Shown here: piece after piece, positions 14,363 through 63,980 of the stretch
Layout of the letters: each line of letters opens with the position of its first letter
Numbering within the stretch: the stretch's first letter is position 1
Source: a virus
Reading direction: 5' to 3' (one strand)
Length of the DNA stretch: 64,000 nucleotides
IMG/VR virus record: IMGVR_UViG_3300034418_006779
Span: 32,001 to 96,000 of that record
Position numbers and translations under genes: made by a program
The notes under the pieces: generated by a model
The model's input: only the letters and a program-made list of their open reading frames with translations
Databases searched by the model: none
Told to the model about the DNA's origin: nothing

Positions 14363-14369
14363 AATTATA

Positions 14370-32300: not shown

Positions 32301-33137
32301 TATGATCCTGATTATACTATCAAAGCTAAAAGATCAGTATTGGGTAGGATGGTATCTATCTTTAATACGTGGTTGTTCGAAGCTGTACAGCAACGCTTCG
32401 GTAGAGTTAGAGATGACAAACAATTTGGATTCAAAAGGAAGGGTAGATACCATAGTGGTGTTGCAATGCCTTTCTTACCAGTAATGTTTGGATGGTCTAA
32501 TGAAACTGGAATGGGGGCTATACAACAGAGCTTATTTGCTACTAAATACCTCTGGAACCAACTTGGTAAATCTCTTAGTCTAGGTAAACTAGACATCAAC
32601 AAGCAGATTACCGGGCAGGAACTTTCCTTTGAGGAAGCAGGATTTAGTGAAGTAGACGCGGCAAATATGAGACGTAACATTCGTGATGCGCAATTCCAAC
32701 TTCTGTTGATAGCTATGTTCTATTGCTTCAAAGCAATGGCTACTGGAGACAAAGAAGAACGAGAGGAAGAGGGAATTCCTTCTCATGAGAAAGGATTTGG
32801 CAGTGAGTGGATGAATAATTACATGGCTAACATGTCATTAAGAATCTATAATGAATTGACGCTGTATAACAACCCAGTTCAAATCTTCTCATCGCCTCAG
32901 AATTTTGCAACGCTTGGTCGAACCTTAGCAGACTTCGGTCACTTGATTGACGCTACTTTCGCACAGTTTGGTGAAAAACCTAACTATGAACAAGGAGCAT
33001 TCAAAGGTGTGAATAAACTGTGGGTAAGATCTACAGGCATGATCCCAGGATCTACACCATTCACTTCAGCAATCAAGTCTGGACATCAGATATACGGAAC
33101 ACCAATATCATCTACATTGGGAACTCGTATGAGATAA
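14370..33137 (+). CDS. giant virion-packaged DNA-dependent RNA polymerase polyprotein (double-psi beta-barrel type)
   Basis: 6255 aa. DGQ (23796), QPMKPVY/YVKTS, RIPNQG (25224) and catalytic GSDFDVDKL (DFDVD at 25341-25355, aa 3658). Also carries PD-(D/E)XK, wHTH and HELGH zincin motifs. Confidence 0.92.
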   Translation: MAETTQNTNPVFDKILQQNRAQALHGASASKGLGTTLVDGPIYTGYDDPRMSLLTQSGWEQARRAIGGGLTLGALGAMKNTYQFAHDIGNFFETMFSSDKSMSDLLDMEQYSQSTIAKNLGEIIDEKREAFAIHKADPNDVFDWDDSGFYWQSVQGILDSAVQFALPGAGAVKAVGAIQKIPRLFSYFKKTEKLGQMLTASKSGQQIANSVGSGLLSNHIEGTSMASEIYNNTMKNFEKDIQKYRDSEGREGISLEEAKRRSAFSANSFREWNRLMFFTDAVQLHGLFKGKGFTRNLLDAKGFKESVGNLTKFNTKNPIYGFLKQGVTEAGEEIVQGISQRLHEDMAKGVDTPIGERLLDYVTDSELLYEGFLGFFGGGPQKIATQFAQEGDAVLTGKFFTKKYWNDKNAMYNQQQEIIKETNDYFKSELGRQMVGHNIAADAVIAGRPELGEIATNREFSRLATMHFEAGTTEVFEQHLDDIANNAEYRKENKYSDDDAANAKELLKELDRLEQQWMKTSRYAVDDKHQVRLFETNNIINSLEKLVGSQQEHIDKLTQNLNETIIDDAVEAANLKISNEKKDALRKILSIDEQGKLRAPVDELAEADLHPAHAKAVAEVFDTQSQVTDLKDQQAILDEMNSKLRDAKKDRANYNSFGYRKSYIEHKKRQEKRLKDKIKREEAAERKQRRADKKLKRAETSKKLKGKAKQLAKKGELKKEAKKIMDKAATKAKLAPENKKSEPLQTVDPATKQPVTPTQPTPNEYIGKERGTLLAERSKKEAVLSSSKPEEIMPVLDVLAEIGDALEELRAQPFQHSGKYEFAPPAHIKDALDEMINRSKRIILNEDTNEYELKDENGKVVRTYKRVSNVSNPDYDDSNKYAHHATQIGSALDLIARDFFSGNLKAWDTYLVADKFDKTKSYPVFKGKKEFEHYLHQLEDLKLVLKSKGQVIIDPGIVDGKTSEFKLADDENGVAGTVDLMTYDKEGNVYIYDLKSMRSNKLEGNDYYSRTHGRKKSDAETHQDQLSLYRILLANSTGLLAAELAVIPTVVGGYNPDGEVKVPSTVNILTKRFGPDVTSMVDFFVFMDPKDSVSGIELSPLRTFITTPPSTPIQVPPSTPQASEEEAEARADLAAVVGLTNKIDAELRKIDQDQEFHADAEEDLLEGLTKKEKEMLSKIRKKHSSFWVGSREELAKLVGTKQKKVDEFIEKLEQKGFLEFNDETVVLTLSDLPARFAARNGFSAIIEAAEDNFNGVIARIRKRLEKGEDYQVEFADLINFIQHQLEAVNSAISERQYDMYEMLYLHYVFVNKSRDFQKPQIPSYEEWLKQSIVPGADVKIDDQYDENTIDEVKNMSDFIKRFFELPDKKLGEQGTKAAVDKVAYLAREYFNEALTSEGFSAQEISDSLNEGKVHPDVFNRKKLLPGTKLKIKVNHNYTGVTKYHPELMGDLPTQETPQGRVVQWSDFIAKYPQGTLEYNMFVPLEIRTEDDRLIGWYHTVGFATKHTIKIKDGQTSDEAVEEAREAVIDARDIILNNLNSQGEFDAGGQLQIEETSIGQLLRPENKNRVRASEGIEEDLDIVVGRMTGQKASLRTGPSDKERVQQNRVHRMKGFKVIRGLTYLMFPVGTKEIKVGKKKTKRTVTTFAPVPLYKHKMGTTKANEEDQYSDIRSSIAKVIELFIDTSNENNMPLIREFEKQTGYNLRKWEHVKKYLEQFLYDRTIPAEYTEIIDFIKDSNLDDSKMVFALKFREDSNDKRAQLVLGSKLSADGSQFINLRRGDQFTEQHRALIEKHLKAMFFNTSLAAVKNNKPVFIIKKGKVEQIAKTYKEFVKSTSDVPFIGMKYTDENGETQHTYTAQRLLLMNSDSIMDYTAPETSATEAKQETVEQQRAKHELTYKPNRLKQKIDKYQFERIAKRLKELRSSDATLALYNQLVDVYRGIHDQIIIAKSHNVDVGNFISGDLETMVDPYMEEGLDVFTQEELTGLISYVQEYFAGTEKASLLDLIDYQNKIIRPAQDVAKAVETRHAYGIEFMDSLSYEAAKELSNLVSDMKKRYNENDEEIKPDDVGKLVMLMTKGLKTSISSANMTKLKTYLIDVIHDRAMSVEEIYTATESYTISPYGEEDIKAVEKEFKAEESTGAVSAVNPPSDEQEAADLAELDAIRAMFPNSDDESASLYGFTPAQQKFVDTHYVEGVDVLNQGAFIKNMLAELFDKVIYNPKGVKVKLEEYVPQLKYNTVNMRKDLRRKAAAIHEQIKSKYDADTYSMQQAAKDPDNAAQFSEILQLDARAKKLDLMIAGWDKIEGLLYERLTNTAGFKMSKDKSARKEVDLDTPAEHEGENVSSDEEMTESDFSKKKFDSLVGEVDPKASASPLLKMFLSTIPRSEIDPETGKAIGGFSWYKGTEYVDFDKVWGFLKETLANKWSDRKAMIEELENYTTSHPYVQHIIDLLQRDKTHAATLQPRILAELQNDPAYFTKYTNEQLEKMSWDRANYRVQKQMQLARQLIVAVRSTAINMYMVMAYSNLTGGDSYSRYKTIPANRNKVDKKVRDQWTINLKQTALYSPKSEFDATLYPNTSRIDALFNKYDNQYRKTLDHLVGFLSEIGVTLSDEVIADIIKWDGNIPLSGGEWVEAGELLSVLLSDKGLRPKMVNNLPLAASNPLNDGYIQSLSRLQAKHEQGLRPQSARINNKSIYEYTTTQFNADHLRELQEDGDMIANFSKSHFSAKSLWLQDSYDHTGGVMMIDEETGQPVSTGLGLHEMEFFTVSLNPYKEDWQTSSGNPVPLQDRNELQHELTKIAHFQEGFEGGSEFQTYEEGEPVRRRRTSLFYPTNSNKERATGFRGIKAIVSSFYGQENRIVLTDETLDVAMEQLVEPEFNRIVKIQSLIAAGDTPRIKAYAHGGQMFHFIPSLNNMEELWDEFGQLNTEALNDPKIQELVRDRVSKHLIKLGQKKYKFWKKAGIGATKEIETKSGNTIKKHFQGLDKFYMHKMFGANKNMTDQQRELAIQKAALDMEINYMIANANMYMLFIGDPALYFKPSMTKDLIKKYPDPIDFIRAYHSEVNDEYRINVVKDTFDNAGKRLAGDIAPGYELADTANPDFADDLEINYMFLGDVKIASVEKEYLKRLGLGDAYDGLEGADGQEYTHWSEHLKILYHLGRLTDDDYERITDKLDRGEDLNDSDLKTVLQPMKPVYVNNRWDEGLSTYIRTYVKTSAFPLLPQLTRDLEIDKLTQFLEERYQDPEALTIHRVPMMSGTKVGGFSDAVEFMNADGTFKTSEELAEAGAFNQDLHVITVPRQGFRIQQDVPYKEDKDEINRVSQAAKLLVVNMMGQKGFEPKRFIIDNRIYDLVPSIREFFIDDEGNEIDHDFSGEDMNKIYNAIFKYLYEEDMRGFVNEFMEENGEDLDWNKVKDVIRDEAIARNYPPTMVDAIDMFDDVAFLKFSPYALQFQALLNSIVNNRVLKKTMPGHSYVLGSEEGFRIQEGLTEDNLKNTEIIYTGSFNGKYLQPARYLTVENANEKEIADARKENRILKEEKDGVEVEYIVTEKGKKIMRGDQVFVAPRFKIEDKNGKERYIDLRETYSDGTYKWLNKDKNGRLTLKKSKFSKQALEMFGMRIPNQGPNSTAYIEIAGFLPKKMGDLIIAPRDFTARMGSDFDVDKLYCYQYYYSVNKSGKIVAYKGKNDKKRLKNALVNVHMTITSNPDENVQKAISTPLNEWRLGEIGNTILGFREKRFSERDPETGEVIPANESFSGISSEYQRTKYLNARAGKIGVGVFSQDSVFNAMLQQHRVTLMRQQTDDSWDDHFEKFGDQDSKLMYTTDTTDGTLTKMEVISAWQSAAVDDETLQILYKLNVNSTTMPVVRYMNQIGFVEETPWFLTQDAMFDYLDFLNQGMKRADAVSAVFKKYNIKFPDEAEKLKEFKNDLYEEANEIGLDKLKHMVENGPDSDDYTPEEYARIQGALFYKFLDFTKKGEDIGDLQRRLGRDTKTVGKNLIETLEILKPAENKSKMYKMANEEKLFNETIPGWIYMNALPLALKFDDIFQVQSPLIEEVYSFLDDAVRWTLPNDTREKIYKHMISYFFSLPKFGMFDGDVVSARERLFFDSRVTNGMLWDRMIEQQLQGLRDKISSRFVVGETTDNQAIEYVAASDTYIISSALDLNAVTSMMDRAAIFDEKSTKNSFIIKHWNKPTKKERNKAVNTDGKKGRLESTFNSDPTQLQKFVVAAKIYSLANQSEKIEAAHFKYALNNFIKLAQARDVNPVNNMSLASIFSNIMSHDYVRNNPFLIGMTADINEQGISKLTFNATEGTLMNERVYSEAFLNLFNDVRQPVLGVFNGIRYTPKLLGQELIKYAMLSGAKQEAIEFTKYIPPSILYNLPLASPDGRTIGDEVSNASLRDLDMFQNFKYQFLQHMSEHLIKVSSYSMDLDNYVKKGKKFNHKEDLLPAVIDKSRINFKDNNIKTEEGEFFIPHAFVTEEVATKKMVVYVSNRNNKYHKVDSLGVFGMREYDPSKQFAASTVNHAANTTTHVNFADNYSDDLVKWEKAQVLKPMEVEEFERLIDANLMSETATPSMAEVITATKKYTKFDFEKSMLETYAQMAILTGVEFSVNQPVEGTSRYDNETYYDPASNRVNINKDTLDKVTEILGSKGEAFKYLLMHELGHAFTKMFIHKHPSHRLTIQIKQLQQEFVRNLDKESDAWKELVEENAYIENTLTDIHEFIAYAMSDNKFQKVLAGMKRKNESMLNKFFRLIKGIIGDLARMLGVKINDTLLEITLTNVMQMQSLYAASVSDVDPDTGVSAFEQLTEGSNAGIVIYEMDGKMYEFTLDGVGVPISYRRGTDLTNLQSPRSYTGDRLVAKTKELYYDALKDGAMILGKTTESTQMSSEISKRPSIEETIAAMDRAGRIERDSEGNLTDVKALNGKSSKLFHSLTEIVPDAEQALREYANVTAYKGDWDQLELDSNGEPDLVELNDMDDVSFFAASSKGNKGGAVTYQFFIDSFNRRKIKLEREMNVLSKERDHHATAIDRKAFIELRVRQIQQAINILNGRIELLRPLTKIRSLKTELNKDVTILENLIGANKNPTLHDLELAREIIEFWKVVGNYSGEEHPFFDESELISIREQKPPKGKRMNAMQQERTKQTLDRAISNMQTYQGILLSRYKDIIDDRNKKTYGADHDINWNDFIKDVSGVEAQFLDISQTDNEVLHLLGEAVKDANWRAKVESNKIVAEVDEMLDKLRDWASTRDVSLNEAFESLAQTFSNDHDERTGNLVEFATYEWRKELLRKRRWAQRQGTIDARSAAEFSRFGTTGFETENVQIFDDSRYRVEQAYRDKMNDLFGEEVAQDLSNQARALRGEFRRAKDGFIRFLDGLTLTTEQRDLRMKMWEFENDPEVHRNILKHGYVNTIKANQIAKIKTGKKFKLRNEKNFLPIVSGKFVLTVPKSADHVDKNFKRLYKPENKPLLDMYKYAIDKINEINDYLPAYKTRNLQENTLPYMLQTHINEFWHDRKNHGMIHASKAIWDRFLVETRQSNFDEESFRMKDPNGQLSDEIQVRYIRGRKKIDDHIDFKVTEWLVNQGDRKKDDAYKKDLQEVRAAAEREIINKLSEKQSFDLGQVLKAYAIFGLNYKHKAATEDLVRAVGYVVDKSDEAPTLDGSAAPAGGRMRNIKTMVDSYKDSFFNYRPIDKNFVSKKKEVLTQDEKKEREEIKGLIDTLKDDIVQMGADMKNDKLTKKEKRALKNKIDDYEDRISRLEDQYARIGGKFKSASYIDLLLRYTRLKGMAWNVPAAFSNIAFGLVAGMNQAADGRVYGDNEYFTALSIALNGVGRNWSFGKKTILHKADVSEKIRNAMDHLDILKETKYEIFSKSKEGTRKWDDKIKFLDPYNPQARSEYFVQSIDLIATALATKVTLADGTETNLWHAMDNNLNVPVGATITTDAARDNITVTEDNQLDAQFYLKQRADKVIRENHGNYDPDYTIKAKRSVLGRMVSIFNTWLFEAVQQRFGRVRDDKQFGFKRKGRYHSGVAMPFLPVMFGWSNETGMGAIQQSLFATKYLWNQLGKSLSLGKLDINKQITGQELSFEEAGFSEVDAANMRRNIRDAQFQLLLIAMFYCFKAMATGDKEEREEEGIPSHEKGFGSEWMNNYMANMSLRIYNELTLYNNPVQIFSSPQNFATLGRTLADFGHLIDATFAQFGEKPNYEQGAFKGVNKLWVRSTGMIPGSTPFTSAIKSGHQIYGTPISSTLGTRMR

Positions 33138-33250: not shown

Positions 33251-33685
33251 TTAGAGCTCGATCAGTCTAAGAATATCTGTCTTAGTCTGTCGCTCATGTA
33301 CTTGAACTAGTTGTGCAAAGTTGATATCAACATCAACACTCATTTCTTCGGTTCCTTTCTGGACAATAACACGGACTTCCTCTTGGTCAGGTAGTCGGTG
33401 AATGCGATAGCTGCTACCTTTATGAGAAAAAGAGTACAGACCACCATGAATAGCTTCATTATATGAAACTTCAATGTTATCATCGTCAACGATGTTAAGG
33501 AGTTTGTTAAGGGTTGATTCAACAGTTACAGGGGTTGATGTTAGTTCTGACATATGTAAAAATATTTTAGGTGCGGGGGCCTGACTCGAACAGACGGTCT
33601 CTGGGTCTGAGACCCAGCGAGATACACCAACTTCTCTACCCCGCAGGAGGAGCTCAGATGTCATCAACCTGATATGGTGATTCAA
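33251..33685 (-). CDS. hypothetical protein
   Basis: 144-aa ORF in the tightly packed - strand block. Confidence 0.65.
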   Translation of the reverse strand: MNHHIRLMTSELLLRGREVGVSRWVSDPETVCSSQAPAPKIFLHMSELTSTPVTVESTLNKLLNIVDDDNIEVSYNEAIHGGLYSFSHKGSSYRIHRLPDQEEVRVIVQKGTEEMSVDVDINFAQLVQVHERQTKTDILRLIEL

Positions 33686-48703: not shown

Positions 48704-49794
48704 CAGCATAATCACATATTTCTATGTGGGCTGGACTATATCATCATCCCATAGGGATGGAGGACGCTCTAGCTGGTTATTAAGAACACTATAGTTCTCC
48801 AGTAGTCTCTGCACGTTCCTGAAGTGTACCTCAGGCTTCGCTCAGGATTGCCATACCTTTCGGCTTAGGTTTCCCTGAATTCATCCTCTGCTAACTCAAC
48901 TATTACTAGCTGAGAGGGCTTACTGAAAATAGTAATCCTTTGTAAGGTTTTCCAGTTTTAGTTGCTTTATTCACATTAGGCGCACGTAAAATATGAGCAG
49001 GTAATCCGTTTCTCCCGTTAGGGTTTCGAAGAATCATGTGATCAATTAATTCAAACGATTTTTTCAAGGATTGTCGCTCAAGCTCTGCCGCAGAAGTATA
49101 CTTACCAAGTAGAGTTTTAGATTGGTTATACACATAAACATCAGGCACTCTAGCTGAGAATGCTTTTTGTCTTTGTTTACGTCCTTTCTGACTAATCTTT
49201 CTTGTTTTCGCTGCCGCAGAAAGCTTTTTATTATGCGCTTTCGACATTTTCTTTCCTGTATTCCATACGGGTTTCAACCACTTAGAAACCTGCTTTTGGT
49301 ATTTTTCGGGAACGTCTTTTAATCTAAGTTTAGACGCCTTCACTTGTTTAAAGTATTTTCGAGCTTTCTTGTTGAATTCTCGAAGACTTTTACCTCTATC
49401 TTGTAATTGCTTAGAGGTTAAATGAATAGAATCTGTCGCTAATGGATTAATATTAAATAACATATTCCAATCTCTAGAATCAATATACTTTTGCTCGATA
49501 GCAAGACATTGATTCTTTGGAACACGTTGTAAAATACTAAATTCAAAGGCTTCATAACCATATTTATCAAAAGCATTCTGAAGATGCTTATTCTTATGAG
49601 TTTTATTCTCTAACGATAAAAAATGATGATAGATCCTTTTTGCAAAACTAACTCTGGTAGACCCTATGTAGGATTTACCATTCTCTTTGCACTTTATCTC
49701 ATATATTCCTGTATTCATAATAATCATAATTTAATATAATATACTATAAACCACAGTTAAATACAATAAAGATTGCTGATTTGTGCAAAATCAA
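48704..49794 (-). mobile_element. group I intron 2 in DNA polymerase (1091 nt)
   Basis: P GAATTCAGGGAAA, Q AATCCTGAG, R GTGCAGAGACTA, S ATGATATAGTCC. IGS GTTGAGTT (48900-48893) pairs with exon AACTCGGT ending in U.G. The intron ends in G and splicing restores LNSV|YGK. Confidence 0.92.
48906..49727 (-). CDS. intron-encoded GIY-YIG homing endonuclease
   Basis: TGIYEI...SYIGS; NUMOD3-like PVWNTGKKMS..HNKKLS. Confidence 0.92.
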   Translation of the reverse strand: MIIMNTGIYEIKCKENGKSYIGSTRVSFAKRIYHHFLSLENKTHKNKHLQNAFDKYGYEAFEFSILQRVPKNQCLAIEQKYIDSRDWNMLFNINPLATDSIHLTSKQLQDRGKSLREFNKKARKYFKQVKASKLRLKDVPEKYQKQVSKWLKPVWNTGKKMSKAHNKKLSAAAKTRKISQKGRKQRQKAFSARVPDVYVYNQSKTLLGKYTSAAELERQSLKKSFELIDHMILRNPNGRNGLPAHILRAPNVNKATKTGKPYKGLLFSVSPLS

Positions 49795-49953: not shown

Positions 49954-50883
49954 CATACCTGTTAATCTTCAGTTTCCTGAAGTGTCGGACTATATCTTTA
50001 GTTCTTTCTTCCAAATAAATTGCCTATAATGAGGTTTATACCCATTGCAAGCATTATATATGCTGGAAGCAGTAAAAGTTGGATTTTTTTCTAGAATATC
50101 CTTCATAGAAGGATAAGTATTTAACAAAGTACCTGATGAATCATATTGATGAAAAATGTATTTCTCTTTACTTTTTGAAAGTTTTCTCTTCATTACTTCT
50201 TTTTTTTCTGGGTTGTCTTCCCAGAATTTCTTGAAGAATTTAGATACTTTTTCTCTTTCTTTTGGGTCAGAAAAACGACGTTTGCCACTTTCAGATAGAA
50301 GGTCTCTAGTTTCTTGAGCAGGCATTAATCCTCCTTCAGAATCTAGTCTAAGATTATAACCATGCTTTCTGTCTAAAGAATTAAAACACTTCATCCAATA
50401 TAGTTCTCTTTTAGAGAGATCATCATATTCTGCGTATTCAATAACGAAATATTCAAAATTAGACTCTCCATGCTTATGCCAAGAATTGATTAGATAACGA
50501 TTCTCATCCTTAGATTTCCTATTTAAAGATGATTTATGAGCTTGTATTCTTCTATAGACATCTACAGATTTACCAATATATACTTTATTAGTTATTTTAT
50601 TTCTGATACAGTAAATACCAGATTTTTCCTTGTGTTGTAATTGAGCTTTCATACCTTAATATAAGGTATTATTCTCATAGTTACAACTTATTACCCAACT
50701 AATTGAACTACCGGACGCTTTTTCACACAAGCATTACCATGTGCTACTTCCTGTTATTAAGCCATATCGCTATAGCTCAGGTAGTCTCTGAACGTTCCCG
50801 CTCTGCGGGCTTCGCTGCTGATTGCCTTATTTTATAACTTAGGTTTCCAGCAATTCATCCGGTTAGGACGCAAGTTCGTTTTT
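49954..50883 (-). mobile_element. group I intron 1 in DNA polymerase (930 nt)
   Basis: P AATTGCTGGAAA, Q AATCAGCAG, R GTTCAGAGACTA, S AAGATATAGTCC. IGS GAACTTGCGTCC (50877-50866) pairs with both GGACGT (P1, U.G) and AAGTTC (P10). Omega-G at 49954. Confidence 0.95.
49990..50652 (-). CDS. intron-encoded GIY-YIG homing endonuclease
   Basis: SGIYCI...VYIGKS...GYNL; C-terminal NUMOD1/IENR1-like HTH. The stop codon overlaps the intron S element. Confidence 0.92.
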   Translation of the reverse strand: MKAQLQHKEKSGIYCIRNKITNKVYIGKSVDVYRRIQAHKSSLNRKSKDENRYLINSWHKHGESNFEYFVIEYAEYDDLSKRELYWMKCFNSLDRKHGYNLRLDSEGGLMPAQETRDLLSESGKRRFSDPKEREKVSKFFKKFWEDNPEKKEVMKRKLSKSKEKYIFHQYDSSGTLLNTYPSMKDILEKNPTFTASSIYNACNGYKPHYRQFIWKKELKI

Positions 50884-56517: not shown

Positions 56518-56962
56518 TAAATAAATTGTTTAACGGATTAAAAGAAAACTTAAAAGTAAAAACGGGCGCGAGTGAGTGATTCACTCTAACCGGAGGTTCT
56601 ACCCTCTGGGGCCCTTACCAGTTACGGGTTTTTAAACTGGCGCAGCCCAGGACTCACACATCTTATCAGAGTCACCAACACTCCAAGAAAAAGAATATTG
56701 TCCCTCCAAACGCAATGGCATCGGTTATACTCGCGCCGGTATCATTGTTCAATAAAAAGAAGGGGGGCTATGCCCCAATAAGTCAGATGTTCTATGACGA
56801 CTTCGTCCAGCTCCCTTTCAGGTTTTCCCACTCCACAAGGAAGTGTTGAGATAGGCGAAACTCTCTCGAGCAAGTCGTATCAGGATGCTCGTCTTCTGTC
56901 CATTCCGGACCTGTTCAGTACGTCAACATATAACTCCTGCATGATTAGTACAGTTTGCCCCC

Positions 56963-57029
56963 TATCGCCGCTCTACCAGATTGGCGTACTCCTAAATAGG
57001 AGAGAGGATTCGAACCTCCACATCGACAT
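56963..57029 (-). ncRNA. circularly permuted tRNA-like element (YrlA-like topology)
   Basis: UGUCG-AUGU-GGAGG UUCGAAU CCUCU-CUCCUA UU UAGGAG-UA-CGCCAAUCUGGUAGAGCG-G-CGAUA: T arm, looped acceptor stem, D arm, closed by a 5-bp stem. Confidence 0.7.
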
Positions 57030-57193
57030 TGTAATTAGCCGACTCCACGATATTTTAAGCGCACGGCGAGTTCATAACGCTCGCGCCCCTTGCGGGGAAA
57101 ATACAGTCGTCAGTCCGGGACGTGACCTGCCTACGTACGCCGATCCCGAGGATCCCGCCCTGGCTTGCGCTCAGAGCTTTCGAGAATTTCTCT

Positions 57194-57424
57194 TTATACT
57201 CTACGTCCAACATCAAGTCGAGCGTAGCGTCTTGAAGCCAATGAATGGCCTCGACCTTGCGAAATCATAGAATTATAATCCCCTCTACGAGGATCTGACT
57301 TTCTCCAATAAGTATTGGATCGTTCTTTACTTTTAGCTCTGCCAATCAGCGCCAACGTAGTGAGAATAAGTGCCATGGAAAGTACATAGTTTCCAGGCAT
57401 TCCGAATATTGTGAATAATAACAT
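57194..57424 (-). CDS. small membrane protein
   Basis: Hydrophobic N-terminal half. Confidence 0.55.
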   Translation of the reverse strand: MLLFTIFGMPGNYVLSMALILTTLALIGRAKSKERSNTYWRKSDPRRGDYNSMISQGRGHSLASRRYARLDVGRRV

Positions 57425-57542
57425 GGTTTCGATCTTTTGTGGTTAAAAGATAAAGGGGCCGTCTCATCGAGACGTACCCCAGTACCTTGCGCGTTAAACA
57501 TCAGAAGTAAGATTCCGGGGGTTGGATAGCCACGCTGTCGGG

Positions 57543-57842
57543 CTATTCGGGAGCGTCATCGAACTCCGCGCTTCCGTAAAGTATTCGAGACATGAATGGT
57601 TTTACGGATCTTTCCTCTTCTTCGTTCTGTTCTTGCACGTATATGTCGTTTTCGGAAGGAGTGATGCTATCACCACCTAACAGCCAGATACCGACTAACA
57701 TTGATATACTACCGAGGGCGGAAAACAATGATGGTCCGCCAGTCATGATATCGTTCATTATGAATTTTAAGCGATCTGGGAAAATTAGGCTAGCGGCAAT
57801 AGTTGCCATTACCAATCCTATTCCGATTAATTTCCTTTTCAT
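57543..57842 (-). CDS. small two-TM membrane protein
   Basis: Two hydrophobic segments and an acidic tail. Confidence 0.7.
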   Translation of the reverse strand: MKRKLIGIGLVMATIAASLIFPDRLKFIMNDIMTGGPSLFSALGSISMLVGIWLLGGDSITPSENDIYVQEQNEEEERSVKPFMSRILYGSAEFDDAPE

Positions 57843-57852
57843 GGATTATTAG

Positions 57853-58283
57853 CTAAGGTGCTCTTGTCATGATCAGATATTATCTGCATGAAATCTCAAA
57901 GAAATAATTTCTGGAATCTATCCTTGATAGATCCTCCAAGTAGTCTCAGTGGACTACACTCTTATAGTAATTCGAATAAGCGGCCTCCTACCAACTTTCG
58001 TTTTCAAAGGGAGGGAACTTAGCGCCCTAACGGGCATAGACGCCTGTACACAAGCCATCTCTCTGTCTACGTCCTTACTAGATTTCACCTAGTAGGACTT
58101 ATATCAAATTACCAAGAATACGTTCGCGCATCTTACCATAACAGTGTACTTAATCTCAGCCTTTGGACAGCTATATTGATAAGTTCTTATCATGGGGATA
58201 CTGGGGGTGTTTTTGAATCGTCTTTTGTTCGTGAAAGATAAATTAAAGGGTAAGAACGGCCTCTTATCTGAATGGACCAGCTC
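57853..58283 (-). ncRNA. candidate large structured non-coding RNA
   Basis: ~430 nt without a convincing ORF and containing at least 6 hairpins. Confidence 0.4.
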
Positions 58284-58338
58284 TCAAAAACAAACATTAC
58301 AATGTGATACCGGGCTAAGGTAAGAAAAGACGTGTATC

Positions 58339-58947
58339 TTAAGCGGCTGACCGCTTAGTATTCTTTTTTTTGACCCAACAATTGTTGTTAGGGTCGAAGG
58401 TGTGCAAAGCATTACCAATGGATGCTCTGACTGGATGGGAATCCAGCTTAGAGATTGATAATGCAATAGTTTTTGGTATGGAAAAATTCGCCATTGTCAT
58501 TTTTGTGCGGTTAATTGAAAACAGGTTAGGACTAACCCCCTCAGTGATTACCGCCATACCTTTTGCGTCGAAGAACTGGGTTCGTCGTGCATTGGGTAAG
58601 AAACCAAATTTGTGAAACTCAGAAATGAGAATCGACATTTTGGTGCTCCCGTTTGGAGTACAAAACATTTGAATCCGATCTCTATGAAATCGAAAGTTTG
58701 CTGAGCAATTTGGGAAAATTATCTCATTCTCTCCTACAAAATGGTATTGCGGAGGCTCCTCCATTGCTTTGTCATTATACATAACGTGCACTGGAAAATT
58801 GTTGACTATCAAGTCAAACATTCCGTTCGGGGCACTCACCTCAGAATTGAGGGTCCCCGAGATGTAATTTAGCGATATCATCGTTTGTCCATTCGGGTTC
58901 GTCGTTGAATAATGATACGAGAGATGGTTTGTTATTCCCATTCTCAA
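58339..58947 (-). CDS. hypothetical protein (ends RSAA)
   Basis: ORF; start uncertain (ATG 58941 or 58881). Confidence 0.7.
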   Translation of the reverse strand: MRMGITNHLSYHYSTTNPNGQTMISLNYISGTLNSEVSAPNGMFDLIVNNFPVHVMYNDKAMEEPPQYHFVGENEIIFPNCSANFRFHRDRIQMFCTPNGSTKMSILISEFHKFGFLPNARRTQFFDAKGMAVITEGVSPNLFSINRTKMTMANFSIPKTIALSISKLDSHPVRASIGNALHTFDPNNNCWVKKKNTKRSAA

Positions 58948-59491
58948 GTATCGAGATGAATTTTCTTTGCTTCAACCTGTTCAGCTCCTCTTTAACAACT
59001 CTCTTAGGTTGAGGCAAAAGCGTATACCGAAAGAGTTCGACAAAAATATCAGATGATATTTTTTGCTGGTACTCACTTCGATCATGAATCATAGCGACAT
59101 TATTAAGTACATTAATAATCGCTGCCCGCGCACTATCTGTATCTATCACAACTGTTTTATTTCTGACATTAGGAAGTTGTACACGAACGTACTCAATTTC
59201 CTTTTTTGTCAAACACATGATATCTACAGTCTTCTCATCAATTAATCGTCCTGACCCATAAACATTTCCTTCAAACAAAGCAAGGGCCGCAAAGTTGACA
59301 CTTAATAAATAAGTCGCCAGCTCTTGCTTCGTTTGAACTTCCAATAAGGTCTTAATAAAAGGACTCTTTCTGATGATTCGGTATTTTTCTGGTTCCATGA
59401 AAAGATCGTAAGATCTTATGGATCCAAATGATCTCTTTACTCCTCTACGGAGAACAGGAATTTTGTGATCTACGATAAATTTATTCGCCAT
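58841..59491 (-). CDS. hypothetical protein with possible C-terminal wHTH
   Basis: PKRVVKEELNRLKQRKFISI. Confidence 0.7.
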   Translation of the reverse strand: MANKFIVDHKIPVLRRGVKRSFGSIRSYDLFMEPEKYRIIRKSPFIKTLLEVQTKQELATYLLSVNFAALALFEGNVYGSGRLIDEKTVDIMCLTKKEIEYVRVQLPNVRNKTVVIDTDSARAAIINVLNNVAMIHDRSEYQQKISSDIFVELFRYTLLPQPKRVVKEELNRLKQRKFISILENGNNKPSLVSLFNDEPEWTNDDIAKLHLGDPQF

Positions 59492-60150
59492 GTCTTCTTT
59501 TTTGCTCCGCGTTGTACGGAATAGATTTGAGAAAAATAATGTTGAAATAAGCCATGTTCAATGAGATACGCAATCGCTGTAGGAGTACGCAAAATCTCAT
59601 GGGGAAACAAGGTGAACTTGTCATTCACATCTCGTACCCAGGTTTCAATTGGGTTGAGTCTGAACCAGCCGTGGTTGGGGTAACGCTTCTTAAGCGCTTC
59701 CATCTCTAACCCGGCCGATTTTTCAATGTACTCGATAGCCTCTAATCTTTTGATTCCTGTCTTCAAGAGACCTTCCTCATAAGCTAACAAACGGATGTTA
59801 GAGGCTATGTAAGAATTGTAAACTCCTAAGTAGAAGTCTATAGGCATTTTCCGAGGACTAAGCTTTACACTAATGTCTTTCGGTTCCAACGGGTATTGTT
59901 CCTCAAGAATCGTAGGATAACACTCTAAAATAGGAGTGTAAATTCCTGCTCCTTGTAGATTAAGAAAAGATCGAACAGTGCCGATAATTTTCTGGTTAAG
60001 TTCCTCGATGCTTTCAGCTTTCATGAACAAGTCATAGTGGTGAAGATCTTGGTTCTTTTCCAAAAAGTTGAACAGCATTGCGTAAGCATTATATAAATGC
60101 TCTTGTTTGAGATCAGCCAAATGACTGAGTACGCCTTCCTTTGTGATCAT
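59470..60150 (-). CDS. hypothetical protein
   Basis: 226-aa ORF. Confidence 0.75.
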   Translation of the reverse strand: MITKEGVLSHLADLKQEHLYNAYAMLFNFLEKNQDLHHYDLFMKAESIEELNQKIIGTVRSFLNLQGAGIYTPILECYPTILEEQYPLEPKDISVKLSPRKMPIDFYLGVYNSYIASNIRLLAYEEGLLKTGIKRLEAIEYIEKSAGLEMEALKKRYPNHGWFRLNPIETWVRDVNDKFTLFPHEILRTPTAIAYLIEHGLFQHYFSQIYSVQRGAKKKTWRINLS

Positions 60151-60177
60151 TGAAAATAAATTTGTTTGTTTAAAAAT

Positions 60178-60222
60178 GCTGGATGGAGAGGAATCGAACC
60201 TCTCTTAAGACCGTCCATCCAG
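60178..60222 (-). ncRNA. minimal tRNA-like element (acceptor stem plus T arm only)
   Basis: CUGGAUGG-ACGGUCUUAAG-AGAGG UUCGAUU CCUCU-CCAUCCAG. Confidence 0.6.
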
Positions 60223-60360
60223 TGTCGGGCACCATGCTTCCCTATTCAGGTTAGAATCATGGCCGGGGCGGTAACTGCGTCACCACTGTCTTGCACAATA
60301 GCTCTCCTTTCGGAGGGGAATCCAAAACTTTCTGTTCCCTAGACCCGTTGCCCTTGGTTG

Positions 60361-60663
60361 TTACATTGATTGTACAATTTTCTTTACGAATTCCTGTTGA
60401 TGTGGTTGAAGGGTTTCTAAATAAGTTTCCCATTGCGATTCAGAGACTTTTGATGGATTGACTAGTCTAGCCCAATCCAAAGTATCTGCTCCCGCAAAAA
60501 CTAAATCCCTTTCTTGTAACATAACAGGGTCGACCAGATAAAGATTTCCTAACAAGTGACTAAACGCAGTCATATTATGAGGATTCTCTGCACGATCTAA
60601 TGTTAGCAATCCGTTTATCAAATTAAACTTGATAAACTCTTGCTTTGAAAGAACTGCTTTCAT
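60361..60663 (-). CDS. hypothetical protein
   Basis: ATG 60663, 100 aa. Confidence 0.65.
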   Translation of the reverse strand: MKAVLSKQEFIKFNLINGLLTLDRAENPHNMTAFSHLLGNLYLVDPVMLQERDLVFAGADTLDWARLVNPSKVSESQWETYLETLQPHQQEFVKKIVQSM

Positions 60664-60852
60664 GGTTGTTGAATTTAACGTACTGTAAAAACGAATAGGG
60701 GCGATCATCGATCACGTCAGGAGATGAACCCGATAAGACACCCGTGTAGGTACCCTTCAGGTGTCTCAACCCTATTCATTAAATTACCCCTAAAGGTTCC
60801 GAGGAACACACCCCTCTACCAAGATGAAAACTATGGCGAGGGCAGTAGGGGT

Positions 60853-61566
60853 TTAAGGCATGACATAAATTTTATGCCACGTATCTTGTCGGAGCATCGC
60901 ATATAAGGTATTTGCTTGCAAGTAATCTGCATGCATTAACCCTTGTTGCGTGATCCGATACAGGTCAATTTGTGGAGTTTCCGGTTCAACTTCAGCGAAA
61001 GCTTGAGAGATGATTCTCCCGTCGAAATCGATTTCCCGAATCTCTACTAATCGACAATGAGGATTTGAAGTACTATACCCCATCTCTTGAGTTATAGCCT
61101 CGAATTCCCCATCAAGGTATATTTCGTAACATTCTCCTTCGAGTTCTCCGCCCCAGTTGAGATATATAAAGTTACCTCTCCTTTTGGCTTCAAGACTTGA
61201 TTTATTAATAGAGAACGCTGAACAATTTTGAGCATAGATTTGACTCAAATGGAATATAGCAATGCCTGTAGGTCCTCGCATCAAAGTAACCGAGAAGGTC
61301 ACAAATTGATTGGGAGCTGTAGCAAATTGAAATCTGTAAAGCTCTCGCTTTTGATTATCAATCGGTACATAGACATTGCCGAAGAACGCAGATTGGGCGA
61401 CGAGCGTATCGCCTACCTGAACCTGCGCTGTATCAACCTCAACCTGTATATATTGTACAGGGAGGCCATTTACGCAATCAGACCCCAACAGGGTGACTGA
61501 CTGAATCTGTGCTGACAACGGCACCAAGGCCAAAAGCAGCATGAATAGTAGCATTAGCTTCTTCAT
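60853..61566 (-). CDS. secreted protein with Ig/FnIII-like domain and T9SS-sorting-like C-terminus
   Basis: Signal MKKLMLLFMLLLALVPLSA|Q; SLEAKRRGNFIYLNW...YEI...EIREIDFDGRI; ends LYAML...HKIYVMP. Confidence 0.65.
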   Translation of the reverse strand: MKKLMLLFMLLLALVPLSAQIQSVTLLGSDCVNGLPVQYIQVEVDTAQVQVGDTLVAQSAFFGNVYVPIDNQKRELYRFQFATAPNQFVTFSVTLMRGPTGIAIFHLSQIYAQNCSAFSINKSSLEAKRRGNFIYLNWGGELEGECYEIYLDGEFEAITQEMGYSTSNPHCRLVEIREIDFDGRIISQAFAEVEPETPQIDLYRITQQGLMHADYLQANTLYAMLRQDTWHKIYVMP

Positions 61567-61783
61567 GACAGTACGTAATGGTTTTGTTGTTATTAATATG
61601 ACAGAAGATTGCATTAATGGTGGTCGCTGCTTCTTCTGCGGTAAGAAGTTTGATAGAATACCCAACGGTATCCATAAACAATCTGCGTATCTCAGCCTTT
61701 GTCAGAGCGAGTTCATACAGAAAATGGAGCGCTACGTCTTCGACGAAACACGCAATATTATCTTTCGTTTGCTTAGTATGCAT
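61478..61783 (-). CDS. hypothetical protein
   Basis: TGATG-coupled to the upstream gene. Confidence 0.55.
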   Translation of the reverse strand: MHTKQTKDNIACFVEDVALHFLYELALTKAEIRRLFMDTVGYSIKLLTAEEAATTINAIFCHINNNKTITYCHEEANATIHAAFGLGAVVSTDSVSHPVGV

Positions 61784-62109
61784 CAGTTATCACTATAAGA
61801 AAATGGAAAAGATGAGAATAAAGTCTGCTCAAGTGGGCCGGTTGCTAACATTCCTGGAAACGTAATCCTAGGAAATAAGAAAGGTTTTGGTTTATACTCT
61901 TTAAATAACAACCGTCTTTCGTACTCCATCTCCACACAATCTTTGGTGAATTTTTGAAGTGCTGGATGCATTGCGTCTACGCGTATACCGTATCTACGAT
62001 ATATAGTGTTATAATCACTGACCTCATACAACGGATTCGTAATTATCTCGTCCGCTGCCATCGGTGCGTAGACATTTATCACTTGTATAATAAATGCTGT
62101 ATTGAACAT
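61783..62109 (-). CDS. hypothetical protein
   Basis: TAATG-coupled to the upstream gene. Confidence 0.65.
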   Translation of the reverse strand: MFNTAFIIQVINVYAPMAADEIITNPLYEVSDYNTIYRRYGIRVDAMHPALQKFTKDCVEMEYERRLLFKEYKPKPFLFPRITFPGMLATGPLEQTLFSSFPFSYSDN

Positions 62110-62300
62110 TACTCTATATAATAATCATCTTTCTCATACTTGCCCATCACTCTGATGAACCATATGAACGAAAGAATGGTAGCTCCAAGAGGCCAGCGAA
62201 GTTGAATATCAAAGATATCAAATATGCTAGCAGCCAGGAGGGCGGCACTGAAAAGGAGTGCGGCCATACTAATAAAAAATTGAATGTCAGTTCTTTTCAT
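62109..62300 (-). CDS. small two-TM membrane protein
   Basis: 63 aa with two hydrophobic helices. Confidence 0.7.
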   Translation of the reverse strand: MKRTDIQFFISMAALLFSAALLAASIFDIFDIQLRWPLGATILSFIWFIRVMGKYEKDDYYIE

Positions 62301-62311
62301 GACTTAAGTGT

Positions 62312-62336
62312 TAAAGAGAAGGACCCCGAAGGGTCC
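62312..62336 (-). terminator. intrinsic terminator (cUUCGg)
   Basis: GGACCC-TTCG-GGGTCC-TTCTCTTT on the - strand. Confidence 0.7.
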
Positions 62337-62362
62337 AACTCAACATGGCGAAAAAAGGATTC

Positions 62363-62857
62363 TTAGAAGTTGCTTGGGTCAAAAGCAACATCGCGTGCGT
62401 GAGCACGAGTGTATTTCCGGATCATCATATAGATCTCACCGAGGTTACTATAAAATTTCTCTTGCTGAGATTCTTCAGCGAGAGGACCGGGGCGATCCAT
62501 ACCTATGATGGTGATACGGAAGGAGAATTCCTGCTTTGTAGGCTCGGGTACTCCAGGTACAAATACAATGATCTCAAGACCTTTGTTTGCGGCCTGGATT
62601 TCAGGGATAACAACGTCTTGCAAGAAATTGCGATATTGACTGTCATTCTCAAAAGGGTTTTCAATGAACGTCCCCTCGGGGTTCGAATCATTTCCTTTTG
62701 TCAGTCTGAGATGGTCCTTGAGGAGGACGGGTTTCTTAACTCCGAAACATGGTTTGCCTTCGAATCCAAAGCTGCCAAAGCGGCCTTTAAGGGACTCTCT
62801 GCGAATTTCGGTGTTAATAGCATTGTCTTGGTCGACGGGAATCACTTTTGATGTCAT
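62363..62857 (-). CDS. hypothetical protein
   Basis: ATG 62857 after an A-rich leader; terminator downstream. Confidence 0.7.
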   Translation of the reverse strand: MTSKVIPVDQDNAINTEIRRESLKGRFGSFGFEGKPCFGVKKPVLLKDHLRLTKGNDSNPEGTFIENPFENDSQYRNFLQDVVIPEIQAANKGLEIIVFVPGVPEPTKQEFSFRITIIGMDRPGPLAEESQQEKFYSNLGEIYMMIRKYTRAHARDVAFDPSNF

Positions 62858-62887
62858 GATTGAGAAAATTAAATTAATTAATAATGA

Positions 62888-62922
62888 TAAAAGATATAGG
62901 GTGGTCCGAATGACCACCCTAT
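62888..62922 (-). terminator. intrinsic terminator
   Basis: ATAGGGTGGTC-ATTCG-GACCACCCTAT-ATCTTTT on the - strand. Confidence 0.75.
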
Positions 62923-62941
62923 GTAAAAAAGAACTAAAATT

Positions 62942-63835
62942 TCATTTTGAAGCAATCCCATCTACTTTCTTTTGCCGATGTCTTTCGACGTTCAAAAGTA
63001 TTTGGTGAGCATATGTTTTGAGGAACTCTATTCCGAGCTCCTCACCTCTTGTTTCAAGTTCATCCATCACATCATCAGCAGCCCAGGCTTTTGCTGAGTC
63101 CATGACTGCTAATAGTTGTTCAGGAGTCGGGCGCTTTGTTGCCGCGAATGCAGAAGGGTACTTGCGCTGAACATGGGCTTCGATGTCGAATATGGTAACT
63201 TTACCATCTCTATCTTCATCAAGGCCAATGTTCTGCTTGTATGCTTTTGACGGAGACGCATATAACACATATGTGTTAAAATCCCTCCCCCACCTCTTTA
63301 CCCCAGGATGTTTTAATCGCTGAGCAGCGAAATAACTCTGAGCATTTAATGCCTTTGGGTATAGTACGGCGAGGTACGTATCTGTCAAATTTTCTAACGG
63401 TCTGTAACGTCGTTTAACAAGATCAAAATACTTATAAACATAATCCAATTGTTCTTCATGGGTCATCTCTTTAAGTCGTTTGGTCGTTGTTCCAAGTTCC
63501 TTCGCGGTCTTTGGCATCCACTGAATTAATCCAGTGGCACCACTACCTTTCAGGTTTTCTACATTCTTATCAAATTTAGACTCATTGTACATAACGGCCA
63601 TAAGCCATTCTGGTTGTACATCTAAATCTGTAGCAACATCTCGTACTTTATCAGAGAAACCGTCTGTGTCTAAGACAAAGTATGAAGCCTGCTCTATCAA
63701 ATAGAGTGGCTCCTCAAAGTGGGTTTTGAAACTTATGTTACCCAACCCTACAAGAAAAAGAACTGCGAGCAAGATACCAGAAACACGTCCTGTGAATCTG
63801 GTGGACACTGTTGTGTCAGTTGTTACAAGTTTCAT
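62942..63835 (-). CDS. membrane-anchored SLT-type lytic transglycosylase
   Basis: TM ILLAVLFLVGL; WLMAVMYNESKF...ATGLIQWMPKTA; EF-hand-like DEDRDGKVT. Confidence 0.88.
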   Translation of the reverse strand: MKLVTTDTTVSTRFTGRVSGILLAVLFLVGLGNISFKTHFEEPLYLIEQASYFVLDTDGFSDKVRDVATDLDVQPEWLMAVMYNESKFDKNVENLKGSGATGLIQWMPKTAKELGTTTKRLKEMTHEEQLDYVYKYFDLVKRRYRPLENLTDTYLAVLYPKALNAQSYFAAQRLKHPGVKRWGRDFNTYVLYASPSKAYKQNIGLDEDRDGKVTIFDIEAHVQRKYPSAFAATKRPTPEQLLAVMDSAKAWAADDVMDELETRGEELGIEFLKTYAHQILLNVERHRQKKVDGIASK

Positions 63836-63861
63836 AATAAATGAATTTTTAGTAAAAATAG

Positions 63862-63980
63862 AGCACGTGGTAGGATTCGAACCTACATCGTTCCCAACTA
63901 GGAAACTGAGAGACTATCAGCACCTAGCAACCTTACAGTCAGTTGAAGGGCGCTCTGGTTTCCGATTGAGCTACACGTGC
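63862..63980 (-). ncRNA. tRNA-like RNA with 64-nt structured insert replacing the anticodon/variable arms
   Basis: GCACGUG/CACGUGC acceptor, UA-GCUC...GAGC D arm, GUAGG UUCGAAU CCUAC T arm. No canonical 7-nt anticodon loop and no encoded CCA. Confidence 0.75.

What the first reader, a model, noticed from the sequence alone, without database searches (positions are those of the whole stretch)
56963..63980. Set of three architecturally different anticodon-less tRNA mimics in the early region
Seen: three - strand intergenic elements each keep a perfect T arm (GG-UUCGA[A/U]U-CC), an acceptor-like stem and a D-loop-like GG, but none has a usable anticodon. One is circularly permuted (56963-57029), one is reduced to a minihelix (60178-60222) and one is expanded (63862-63980). 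No normal tRNA lies in the window. Known: tRNA-elbow mimics are read by RNase P, tRNA-modifying enzymes and Ro60/PNPase, and several anti-phage systems (PrrC, PARIS AriB) attack tRNAs. Inference: three independent solutions that conserve the elbow and discard decoding suggest selection for a non-translational role. Candidates are decoys for tRNA-targeting defences, RNase P/Z punctuation of early transcripts, or stabilising caps on larger ncRNAs.
Basis: partly seen in the sequence, partly recalled or inferred. Interest (0 to 1): 0.85.

Follow-up and report, generated by a model that had tools for sequence, protein, structure and literature searches.

The report
Anticodon-less tRNA-shaped RNAs in a phage
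A distant crAss-like phage from a metagenome carries three real tRNA-shaped RNA elements, part of a set of at least nine, that keep the acceptor stem and T arm of a tRNA but cannot read a codon; what they do is unknown.

Summary

- **Element 3 (63862-63980)** passes Rfam's tRNA threshold (39.4 bits against a cut-off of 29). About 54 nt replace the 13-nt centre of the anticodon arm.
- **Element 1 (56963-57028)** has the permuted order T arm, closed acceptor hairpin, D arm. That order matches the tRNA-like domain of YrlA Y RNAs. It scores only 19 bits against YrlA, shows no Ro60-binding stem, and the 109-kb record has no Ro60 gene.
- **Element 2 (60178-60222)** is an acceptor plus T-arm minihelix that follows a structured domain of about 125 nt.

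The claim that no normal tRNA lies in the window needs correction. A tRNA(UCA) is called at 33570-33645, though its anticodon loop is also abnormal.

The three belong to a set of nine - strand elements. Across that set, 104 of 107 acceptor and T-stem positions pair, yet none has a canonical anticodon loop. That pattern argues against simple decay.

No informative relatives could be fetched: the two related contigs are identical over element 3. So there is no covariation and no expression evidence.

My best guess, at 0.4, is that these are handles for the host's tRNA-processing enzymes, which would cut up and stabilise the transcripts. Decoy, Y-RNA and pseudogene readings remain open. The closest known RNAs are YrlA and T4 species 1 RNA. 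I class this as a new variant of a known kind.

Other readers of this scan noted the same elements on overlapping windows of this genome.

The parts
56963..57028 (-). Element 1: circularly permuted tRNA fold. Order: stem strand UGUCG, 4-nt variable region, T arm (GGAGG/UUCGAAU/CCUCU), closed acceptor hairpin (CUCCUA-UU-UAGGAG), UA linker, D arm with UGGUA, stem strand CGAUA. The RNA chain enters and leaves through the stem that corresponds to the anticodon stem.
   Evidence: colinear with YrlA model positions 30-81, 19.1 bits; un-permuted form called tRNA by ARAGORN, score 108
56755..57193 (-). GC-rich non-coding stretch around element 1 (46% GC; genome mean 39.6%) with GNRA-capped hairpins. 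It ends at a terminator-like hairpin at 56764-56776 followed by a T run. Possibly a larger host RNA of about 420 nt; its limits and fold are not established.
   Evidence: No Rfam family. Folding z-score is only -0.95.
60178..60222 (-). Element 2: acceptor plus T-arm minihelix. Acceptor stem CUGGAUGG/CCAUCCAG (8 bp), 11-nt linker ACGGUCUUAAG, T arm AGAGG/UUCGAUU/CCUCU, discriminator C, then AUUUUUA. The next ORF starts 27 nt downstream.
60228..60353 (-). Structured domain of about 125 nt directly upstream of element 2: a multi-branch fold including a GAAA-capped hairpin.
   Evidence: 201-nt stretch containing this domain and element 2: -64.9 kcal/mol, z -2.4, 1 of 200 shuffles as good. No Rfam family.
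63862..63980 (-). Element 3: tRNA with normal acceptor stem (GCACGUG/CACGUGC), D arm, variable loop and T arm. The middle of the anticodon arm is replaced by about 54-58 nt that can form a two-hairpin junction on a CCC/GGG stem. Discriminator U, no encoded CCA. The SLT gene starts 26 nt downstream.
   Evidence: Identical in two metagenome contigs.
33570..33645 (-). Sibling element inside the window: tRNA(UCA) with anticodon loop UCUCAGA (C33, self-complementary).

Best explanation
The three elements are real tRNA-derived structured RNAs that do not decode. They belong to a set of at least nine spread through the - strand gene block of a distant crAss-like phage. What is kept in every one is the coaxial acceptor/T-arm helix with a canonical T loop, and in elements 1 and 3 the D-loop partner that forms the tRNA elbow.

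That part of a tRNA is what bacterial RNase P, the 3' trimming enzymes, the CCA-adding enzyme and the T-loop modifying enzymes recognise. So the most likely mechanism is that host tRNA-maturation enzymes treat the elements as pre-tRNAs:
- Elements 2 and 3 would be cut out of polycistronic transcripts. That would fix the 3' end of the upstream RNA and the 5' end of the downstream mRNA, about 26 nt before the start codon. It would also yield stable small RNAs.
- Element 1, whose acceptor is closed, would act as a folded tRNA-like domain inside a larger RNA.

Shown: the folds, their placement, and the contrast between intact stems and aberrant anticodon regions. Inferred: transcription, processing and any downstream role.
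For: - Rfam tRNA match for element 3.
- YrlA-type colinearity of element 1, and an ARAGORN tRNA call after un-permuting it.
- T-loop and minihelix enrichment over chance.
- 104/107 acceptor and T-stem positions paired over nine elements, with no canonical anticodon loop in any.
- All lie in intergenic gaps of one strand.
- Six of the nine are followed by an ORF start within 3-47 nt in this genome, and a seventh is in the variant contig L078.
- In L078 the elements stay intact around a 185-nt insertion. A sibling's acceptor stem gains a C on one strand together with an A-to-G change opposite it.
- A relative with about 73% DNA identity keeps a different odd cloverleaf at the site syntenic to this phage's tRNA-Gly-like gene.
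- T4 species 1 RNA (rnaC), a stable RNA annotated in the T4 tRNA gene region, has a T arm near its 3' end and a large insert; its ends pair only weakly in the fold.
- M. smegmatis YrlA is cleaved by RNase P in vitro and receives CCA in vivo (PMC4201824).
Against: - There is no expression, end-mapping or cleavage data.
- There is no covariation for any of the three. Relatives are identical over element 3, and none was found for elements 1 and 2.
- Folding z-scores for elements 1 and 2 alone are unremarkable (0.02 and -1.0).
- A pure processing signal does not need a D arm (elements 1, 3) or the long insert in element 3.
- Element 1 has no free acceptor end. Its 6-bp stem is shorter than the 7 bp that RNase P cleavage of YrlA was linked to.
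- The closeness to ORF starts may only reflect dense gene packing.
Confidence: 0.4

Rival explanations
1. RNA decoys or sponges. The elements present a tRNA body without a cleavable or decodable anticodon loop. They would titrate host proteins that bind tRNA, such as anticodon-arm nucleases of defence systems (PrrC, PARIS AriB, PtuAB, bacterial Schlafens).
For: - Every anticodon region in the set is altered, while the tRNA body is kept.
- Phage tRNAs are reported to evade such nucleases through anticodon-loop changes (PMC10264068, seen only as a reference inside PMC13056530; the paper itself was not read).
- Several defence nucleases cut the anticodon arm (PMC13056530).
- Three siblings have anticodon loops that can pair down to 3-4 nt (two of them are 6-nt loops), which would remove the target.
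Against: - No defence system or host is known for this uncultured phage.
- Elements 1 and 2 lack an anticodon arm altogether, so they would bind anticodon-directed nucleases poorly.
- A decoy must be abundant, and nothing here speaks to abundance.
- No published case of an anticodon-less decoy turned up in two literature searches.
Confidence: 0.2
2. Decaying or recently damaged tRNA genes (pseudo-tRNAs) with no function of their own. Element 3 would be a tRNA hit by an insertion, element 2 a deletion remnant and element 1 a rearrangement.
For: - Phage tRNA content turns over quickly. The relative G001 has tRNA-like genes at different sites.
- There is no covariation evidence for the three.
- Thermodynamic z-scores for elements 1 and 2 are weak.
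- Element 3's insert has several near-equal folds.
Against: - Decay should hit acceptor and T stems as often as anticodon loops, yet 104/107 stem positions pair across nine elements and all T loops fit the consensus.
- Element 1 needs a precise permutation that keeps U8, A14, G18-G19, U48 and G53-C61 in register.
- The elements stay intact in variant contigs around an insertion and next to a highly divergent block.
Confidence: 0.15
3. Element 1 only: a Y RNA of the YrlA kind that binds the host's Ro60 (Rsr) and redirects Ro60/PNPase RNA decay during infection.
For: - It has the same V, T arm, closed acceptor hairpin, D arm order as YrlA.
- Phage YrlA-like RNAs of this design are common in IMG/VR.
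- A Bacteroidota genome, B. thetaiotaomicron, encodes TROVE (control rows), so a host Ro60 is conceivable.
Against: - It scores 19.1 bits against a cut-off of 69, and against 33-44 bits for phage YrlA-like RNAs.
- Only model positions 30-81 match, so the Ro60-binding stem is not found.
- There is no TROVE gene in the 109-kb record, against 5 of 5 records for the better-scoring phage examples.
- The surrounding non-coding RNA would be about 420 nt rather than about 100.
Confidence: 0.1
4. Element 3 only: a working tRNA whose insert is removed by splicing or tolerated, so that it still decodes.
For: It is over Rfam's tRNA threshold with all tertiary-contact bases in place. ARAGORN in intron mode offers tRNA-Ile(GAU).
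Against: - The ARAGORN solution places the intron at position 29/30 and re-uses the D-stem strand.
- 1085 deletion variants give many conflicting anticodons.
- The insert is far too short for a group I intron, and bacteria lack the tRNA splicing endonuclease (established knowledge).
- The 7-nt tip loop UAGUCUC lacks U33 and a purine at position 37.
Confidence: 0.05

Closest known systems
YrlA Y RNA-like RNAs (Rfam RF02553; Chen et al. 2014, PMC4201824)
   Same: Element 1 has the same permuted tRNA-like domain: variable region, T arm, closed acceptor-like hairpin, GUA linker, D arm. The chain leaves through the stem that corresponds to the anticodon stem. Such RNAs also occur in phages.
   Different: It scores 19 bits against a cut-off of 69. 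No Ro60-binding stem is matched, there is no TROVE gene in the record (against 5/5), and it sits in a much longer non-coding stretch.
Phage T4 species 1 RNA (rnaC), a stable RNA annotated in the T4 tRNA gene region
   Same: It has a canonical T arm near its 3' end and a large non-tRNA insert instead of an anticodon arm, and it is encoded among tRNA genes. Its ends pair only weakly in the fold. This resembles element 2, element 3 and the 153-nt and 115-nt siblings.
   Different: There is no sequence similarity. The T4 RNAs are clustered with ordinary decoding tRNAs, whereas here the elements are dispersed and almost no ordinary tRNA accompanies them. The function of the T4 RNA is, to my knowledge, also unknown.
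Canonical tRNA (Rfam RF00005)
   Same: Element 3 passes the family threshold and keeps the acceptor stem, D arm, T arm and elbow contacts.
   Different: It has no 7-nt anticodon loop; about 54 nt replace the loop and inner stem. Elements 1 and 2 do not match the family.
MALAT1/mascRNA-type 3' end formation by RNase P at a tRNA-like structure (analogy from established knowledge)
   Same: Element 2 is a tRNA-like module placed right after a structured RNA domain. A cut by RNase P at its 5' end would define that domain's 3' end.
   Different: That system is eukaryotic and unrelated in sequence. Processing here is untested.

Membership tests
tRNA (RF00005) | Score at or above Rfam's gathering threshold (29 bits) | tested here: met
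   Element 3: 39.4 bits over model positions 1-71. Elements 1 and 2 give no RF00005 match even at E up to 10.
tRNA (RF00005) | A 7-nt anticodon loop with U33 and a purine at 37 on a 5-bp stem | tested here: not met
   Element 3 has 54 nt where the model has 13, and no unique deletion restores a canonical arm. Element 1 is open at this stem. Element 2 has only an 11-nt linker.
tRNA (RF00005) | Acceptor stem, T arm with T54-Psi55-C56-R57-A58, and D-loop G18-G19 | tested here: met
   All three have fully paired acceptor and T stems and UUCGAWU loops. GG is present in the D loop of elements 1 and 3, and in the linker of element 2.
YrlA (RF02553) | Permuted tRNA-like domain: T arm, closed acceptor-like hairpin, D arm | tested here: met
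   Element 1 aligns colinearly to model positions 30-81. Un-permuted, it is called a tRNA.
YrlA (RF02553) | Rfam gathering score (69 bits) and the long terminal stem that carries the Ro60-binding site | tested here: not met
   It scores 19.1 bits, E 0.2 in a 501-nt search. Model positions 1-29 and 82-114 are not matched. No convincing pairing of the flanks appears in folds; the attempt to force the tRNA-like core did not take effect.
YrlA (RF02553) | Encoded in a genome with, and usually next to, a Ro60/TROVE gene | tested here: not met
   There is no PF05731 match in the 109-kb record. By contrast, 5 of 5 phage records with YrlA-like RNAs of 39-44 bits have one. The record may be incomplete, and a host Ro60 cannot be excluded.
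T4 species 1 RNA type (stable tRNA-like RNA of phage tRNA regions) | T arm near the 3' end, paired ends, a non-tRNA insert, and a location among tRNA genes | tested here: met
   This is an architectural match for elements 2 and 3. It is a resemblance of design only; there is no sequence homology. In T4 rnaC itself the ends pair only weakly.
T4 species 1 RNA type (stable tRNA-like RNA of phage tRNA regions) | Accumulates as a discrete stable RNA after RNase P processing | not testable with these tools
   This needs RNA from infected cells or in vitro cleavage.
tmRNA | tRNA-Ala-like acceptor with G3:U70, plus a tag reading frame | tested here: not met
   ARAGORN finds no tmRNA at default settings. 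None of the three has G3:U70. The best cyano_tmRNA match is 8.2 bits.
Group I intron, including a permuted intron-exon layout around element 1 | A match to the intron core on either flank | tested here: not met
   There is no Intron_gpI match at E up to 10 in 56700-57200. Two real group I introns elsewhere in the window are detected at 92 and 59.9 bits.

The most novel reading that the evidence does not exclude
A lytic crAss-like phage has turned almost its whole tRNA gene set into elbow-and-acceptor-only mimics: a permuted form, a minihelix, forms with an expanded arm and forms with a shortened loop. These would act as an RNA-based counter-defence or host-takeover kit. They would soak up or misdirect tRNA-binding host factors, such as defence nucleases that cut tRNA, Ro60/PNPase and RNase P, rather than supply translation.
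Probability: 0.15. Interest if true: 0.85.

Novelty: new variant of a known kind. Interest (0 to 1): 0.6.

Why it matters
Phage tRNA genes are usually explained by codon supply or, more recently, by replacing tRNAs that host defences destroy. Here nearly every tRNA-shaped gene in one phage has lost a usable anticodon while keeping flawless acceptor and T arms. That points to a use of the tRNA body that has nothing to do with decoding.

To my knowledge the same question has stayed open for T4 species 1 and 2 RNAs since the 1970s, and it is open for the tRNA-like domain of bacterial Y RNAs. This set offers several minimal, differently built versions that could be tested side by side for RNase P cleavage, CCA addition, Ro60 binding and protection against tRNA-cutting defence systems.

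If they prove to be only processing signals, they would be a bacterial-virus counterpart of tRNA punctuation in mitochondria.

Tried and rejected
**Searches for relatives**
- Protein-anchored searches found nothing in IMG/VR, JGI metagenomes or GTDB genomes. Anchors were ORF 59470-60150, the SLT gene and an AAA ATPase.
- The INPHARED phage collection holds no DNA match.
- Exact-motif scans for elements 1 and 2 found nothing.
- The element 3 T-arm motif hit only an unrelated phage with 53 tRNA matches.
- The element 3 D-arm motif found two near-identical strain contigs and one chance hit. Element 3 lies in a block with no differences at all, so its identity says nothing about selection.

**Element 3 as an intron-bearing tRNA:** rejected.

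**Element 1 region**
- It is not coding under TGA=W or TAG=Q.
- The overlapping ORFs match no Pfam family.
- It is not flanked by halves of a group I intron, and it is not a tmRNA.
- My attempt to fold the region with the tRNA-like core forced did not take effect.

**Element 2 as a phage attachment site:** no tyrosine integrase in the record. Other integrase types were not searched.

**Other checks that gave nothing**
- Neighbouring ORFs match no informative family or Atlas cluster; the only exceptions are SLT and M23 cell-wall hydrolase domains and an AAA ATPase domain.
- The record encodes no RtcB, CCA-adding enzyme or RNA ligase.
- No paralogous large RNAs exist in the genome; only the T loops match each other.


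Full report
**Setting**

The window is bases 32001-96000 of a 109,078-bp linear IMG/VR virus record. The record encodes a large terminase, a portal and a major head protein that match PHROG families, and a 6260-codon open frame on the + strand. The nearest terminases in the phage collection are those of crAss-like Flavobacterium and Bacteroides phages, at about 28% identity. The phage is therefore a distant crAss-like virus, probably of a Bacteroidota host.

From about 33.6 kb of the window to the end of the record, the genes run on the - strand. Long + strand frames are open in the standard code, so the phage does not appear to need a suppressor tRNA.

**Checking the observation**

- The T-loop motif GGTTCRANYCC occurs 4 times in the window against 0.30 expected. 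Three of those are the elements. Five more lie on the - strand in the next 13 kb.
- I ran a composite test: a 5-bp T stem, a UUCRANN loop and an adjoining acceptor stem, open or closed. It finds 4 sites, all on the - strand, against a mean of 0.46 and a maximum of 3 in 100 simulations.

Element 3 (63862-63980)
- It is an Rfam tRNA match over the whole model: 39.4 bits, cut-off 29. It has 54 nt where the model has 13.
- The acceptor stem is 7/7 and the T arm 5/5. U8, A14, G18-G19, A15/U48 and G53-C61 are all present.

Element 1 (56963-57028)
- It aligns colinearly with the T arm, closed hairpin, GUA linker and D arm of Rfam YrlA.
- UGUCG before it and CGAUA after it can form the equivalent of an anticodon stem.
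- When I cut it in the hairpin loop and closed it with a generic anticodon loop, ARAGORN called a tRNA with score 108.

Element 2 (60178-60222)
- It has an 8-bp acceptor stem, an 11-nt linker and a 5-bp T stem with loop UUCGAUU.

None of the three has a usable anticodon loop.

One side claim is wrong as written. ARAGORN and Rfam call a tRNA(UCA) at 33570-33645. Its loop UCUCAGA has C at position 33 and can pair down to a 3-nt loop.

**The three are part of a larger set**

Notes from other first readers on overlapping windows pointed to nine such elements. I checked them.

Beyond the window, all on the - strand, lie:
- a tRNA-Leu(CAA)-like gene with C37;
- a 153-nt RNA with a G3:U70 acceptor stem and a T arm;
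- two cloverleaves with 6-nt anticodon loops, CUGGUG and UUGGUA;
- a 115-nt RNA with an acceptor stem and a T arm.

Over all nine, 104 of 107 acceptor and T-stem positions pair and every T loop fits the consensus. No anticodon region is canonical.

The single + strand tRNA-Gly(GCC)-like gene also has C33. This contrast between intact stems and aberrant anticodon regions is the main argument that the tRNA body, not decoding, is under selection.

**Relatives**

Protein-anchored searches in IMG/VR, JGI metagenomes and GTDB genomes found nothing for three nearby ORFs.

A D-arm motif of element 3 found two metagenome contigs. These are strain-level relatives.
- Element 3 is identical in both. It lies in a block with no differences at all, next to a block in the SLT gene that differs at 24-48 positions per 100 nt. 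Its identity is therefore uninformative.
- One contig carries a 185-nt insertion with a small ORF between two sibling elements, which stay intact.
- In that contig, sibling UGGU-C gains a C in the 5' acceptor strand together with an A-to-G change opposite it. Its loop changes from UUGGUA to UUGAUA.

A 27-kb relative has a terminase 80% identical and about 73% DNA identity over the shared structural-gene region. At the site syntenic to this phage's tRNA-Gly-like gene it keeps a different odd cloverleaf, with an 8-nt anticodon loop and a 9-nt T loop.

The lineage therefore seems to maintain odd tRNA-shaped genes. For the three elements of this finding, however, there is no covariation evidence.

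**What each element is closest to**

Element 1 has the topology that Chen et al. described for YrlA Y RNAs (PMC4201824).
- A motif scan of IMG/VR returned 40 loci, many with the same T arm, hairpin, D arm order.
- Those I tested score 33-44 bits against YrlA, with E values from 1e-3 to 6e-7.
- Five of five such phage records encode a TROVE/Ro60 protein.
- Five records with a different, shorter variant do not.
- Element 1 scores only 19 bits, matches only the tRNA-like part of the model, and its record has no TROVE gene.
- I therefore do not file it as a YrlA, though it is built like one.

Element 1 also sits in a 537-676-nt stretch with no convincing ORF in any code tried. That stretch contains GNRA-capped hairpins and a terminator-like hairpin at 56764-56776. 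It matches no Rfam family, and its folding energy is not exceptional.

Element 2 follows a structured domain of about 125 nt (z -2.4) and is followed by AUUUUUA and an ORF start 27 nt later. Element 3 is followed by an ORF start 26 nt later.

In design, elements 2 and 3 and the 153-nt and 115-nt siblings resemble T4 species 1 RNA. That RNA is annotated as a stable RNA in the T4 tRNA gene region. It has a T arm near its 3' end and a large insert, and its ends pair only weakly in the fold.

**Element 3 is not an intron-bearing tRNA**
- ARAGORN's intron mode gives a forced tRNA-Ile with the intron at position 29/30.
- 1085 single-deletion variants give many conflicting anticodons.
- The insert has several folds within 0.2 kcal/mol of each other. 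One is a two-hairpin junction on a CCC/GGG stem.

**Mechanism**

The part kept in every element is the acceptor/T-arm helix and elbow. From established knowledge, that is the substrate determinant for RNase P, 3' end maturation, CCA addition and T-loop modification.

I therefore think the most likely reading is that host tRNA-maturation enzymes act on these RNAs. That would excise elements 2 and 3 and so cut the transcripts, leaving stable small RNAs. Element 1 would serve as a folded domain of a larger RNA. I put this at 0.4. Everything beyond the folds and their placement is inference.

Rival readings:
- decoys for proteins that target tRNA, 0.2 (context in PMC13056530);
- decay, 0.15, which the intact stems argue against;
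- a Y RNA that binds host Ro60, for element 1 only, 0.1;
- a decoding tRNA, for element 3 only, 0.05.

The record encodes no TROVE protein, RtcB, CCA-adding enzyme, RNA ligase or tyrosine integrase. Neighbouring ORFs give no functional clue.

**Verdict**

The kind of RNA is known from YrlA tRNA-like domains and T4 stable RNAs. What is unusual is a whole set of differently built anticodon-less forms in one phage, with almost no ordinary tRNA beside them. I rate it a new variant of a known kind, interest 0.6.

Noticed in passing
window 33570-33645 (-): tRNA(UCA), which ARAGORN labels 'SeC', has anticodon loop UCUCAGA (C33). Positions 32-38 and 33-37 can pair, leaving a 3-nt loop. The phage's long + strand ORFs are open in the standard code, so it has no evident need for a suppressor.
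   Followed up: partly
L047:1923-5704 (genome 97923-101704, just beyond the window end): Five more - strand tRNA-shaped elements: a Leu(CAA)-like gene with C37, a 153-nt RNA with a G3:U70 acceptor stem and a T arm, two cloverleaves with 6-nt anticodon loops (CUGGUG, UUGGUA), and a 115-nt RNA with an acceptor stem and a T arm.
   Followed up: partly
window about 63000-63750 (inside the SLT gene 62942-63835, - strand) against L077: This block differs from a strain-level metagenome contig at 24-48 positions per 100 nt, while both flanks are identical. It looks like a swapped or hypervariable cassette in the lytic transglycosylase gene.
   Followed up: no
L078, at the position matching genome 98162-98169: A related contig carries a 185-nt insertion with a small ORF between two tRNA-like elements that are only 6 nt apart in this genome.
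   Followed up: no
L051:2125-2200 (+), relative G001: At the site syntenic to this phage's tRNA-Gly-like gene, the relative has a different cloverleaf with an 8-nt anticodon loop and a 9-nt T loop. Rfam's tRNA search of that record missed it.
   Followed up: partly
L007, L008, L029, L042, L012 (IMG/VR phage records): Phage YrlA-like RNAs in records that encode a TROVE/Ro60 protein score about 39-44 bits where scored (L012 was not scored), well under Rfam's YrlA cut-off of 69. Standard annotation would therefore miss them.
   Followed up: partly
window 48712-48943 and 50710-50864 (-): Two group I introns, at 92 and 59.9 bits, lie in the - strand gene block. The genes they interrupt were not examined.
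   Followed up: no
window 14358-33137 (+): A single open frame of 6260 codons. Another reader suggested a virion RNA polymerase polyprotein.
   Followed up: no
L053 and its record (IMGVR_UViG_3300044998_000260): An unrelated 105-kb phage contig has 53 Rfam tRNA matches, including a 100-nt tRNA with a very long variable region.
   Followed up: no
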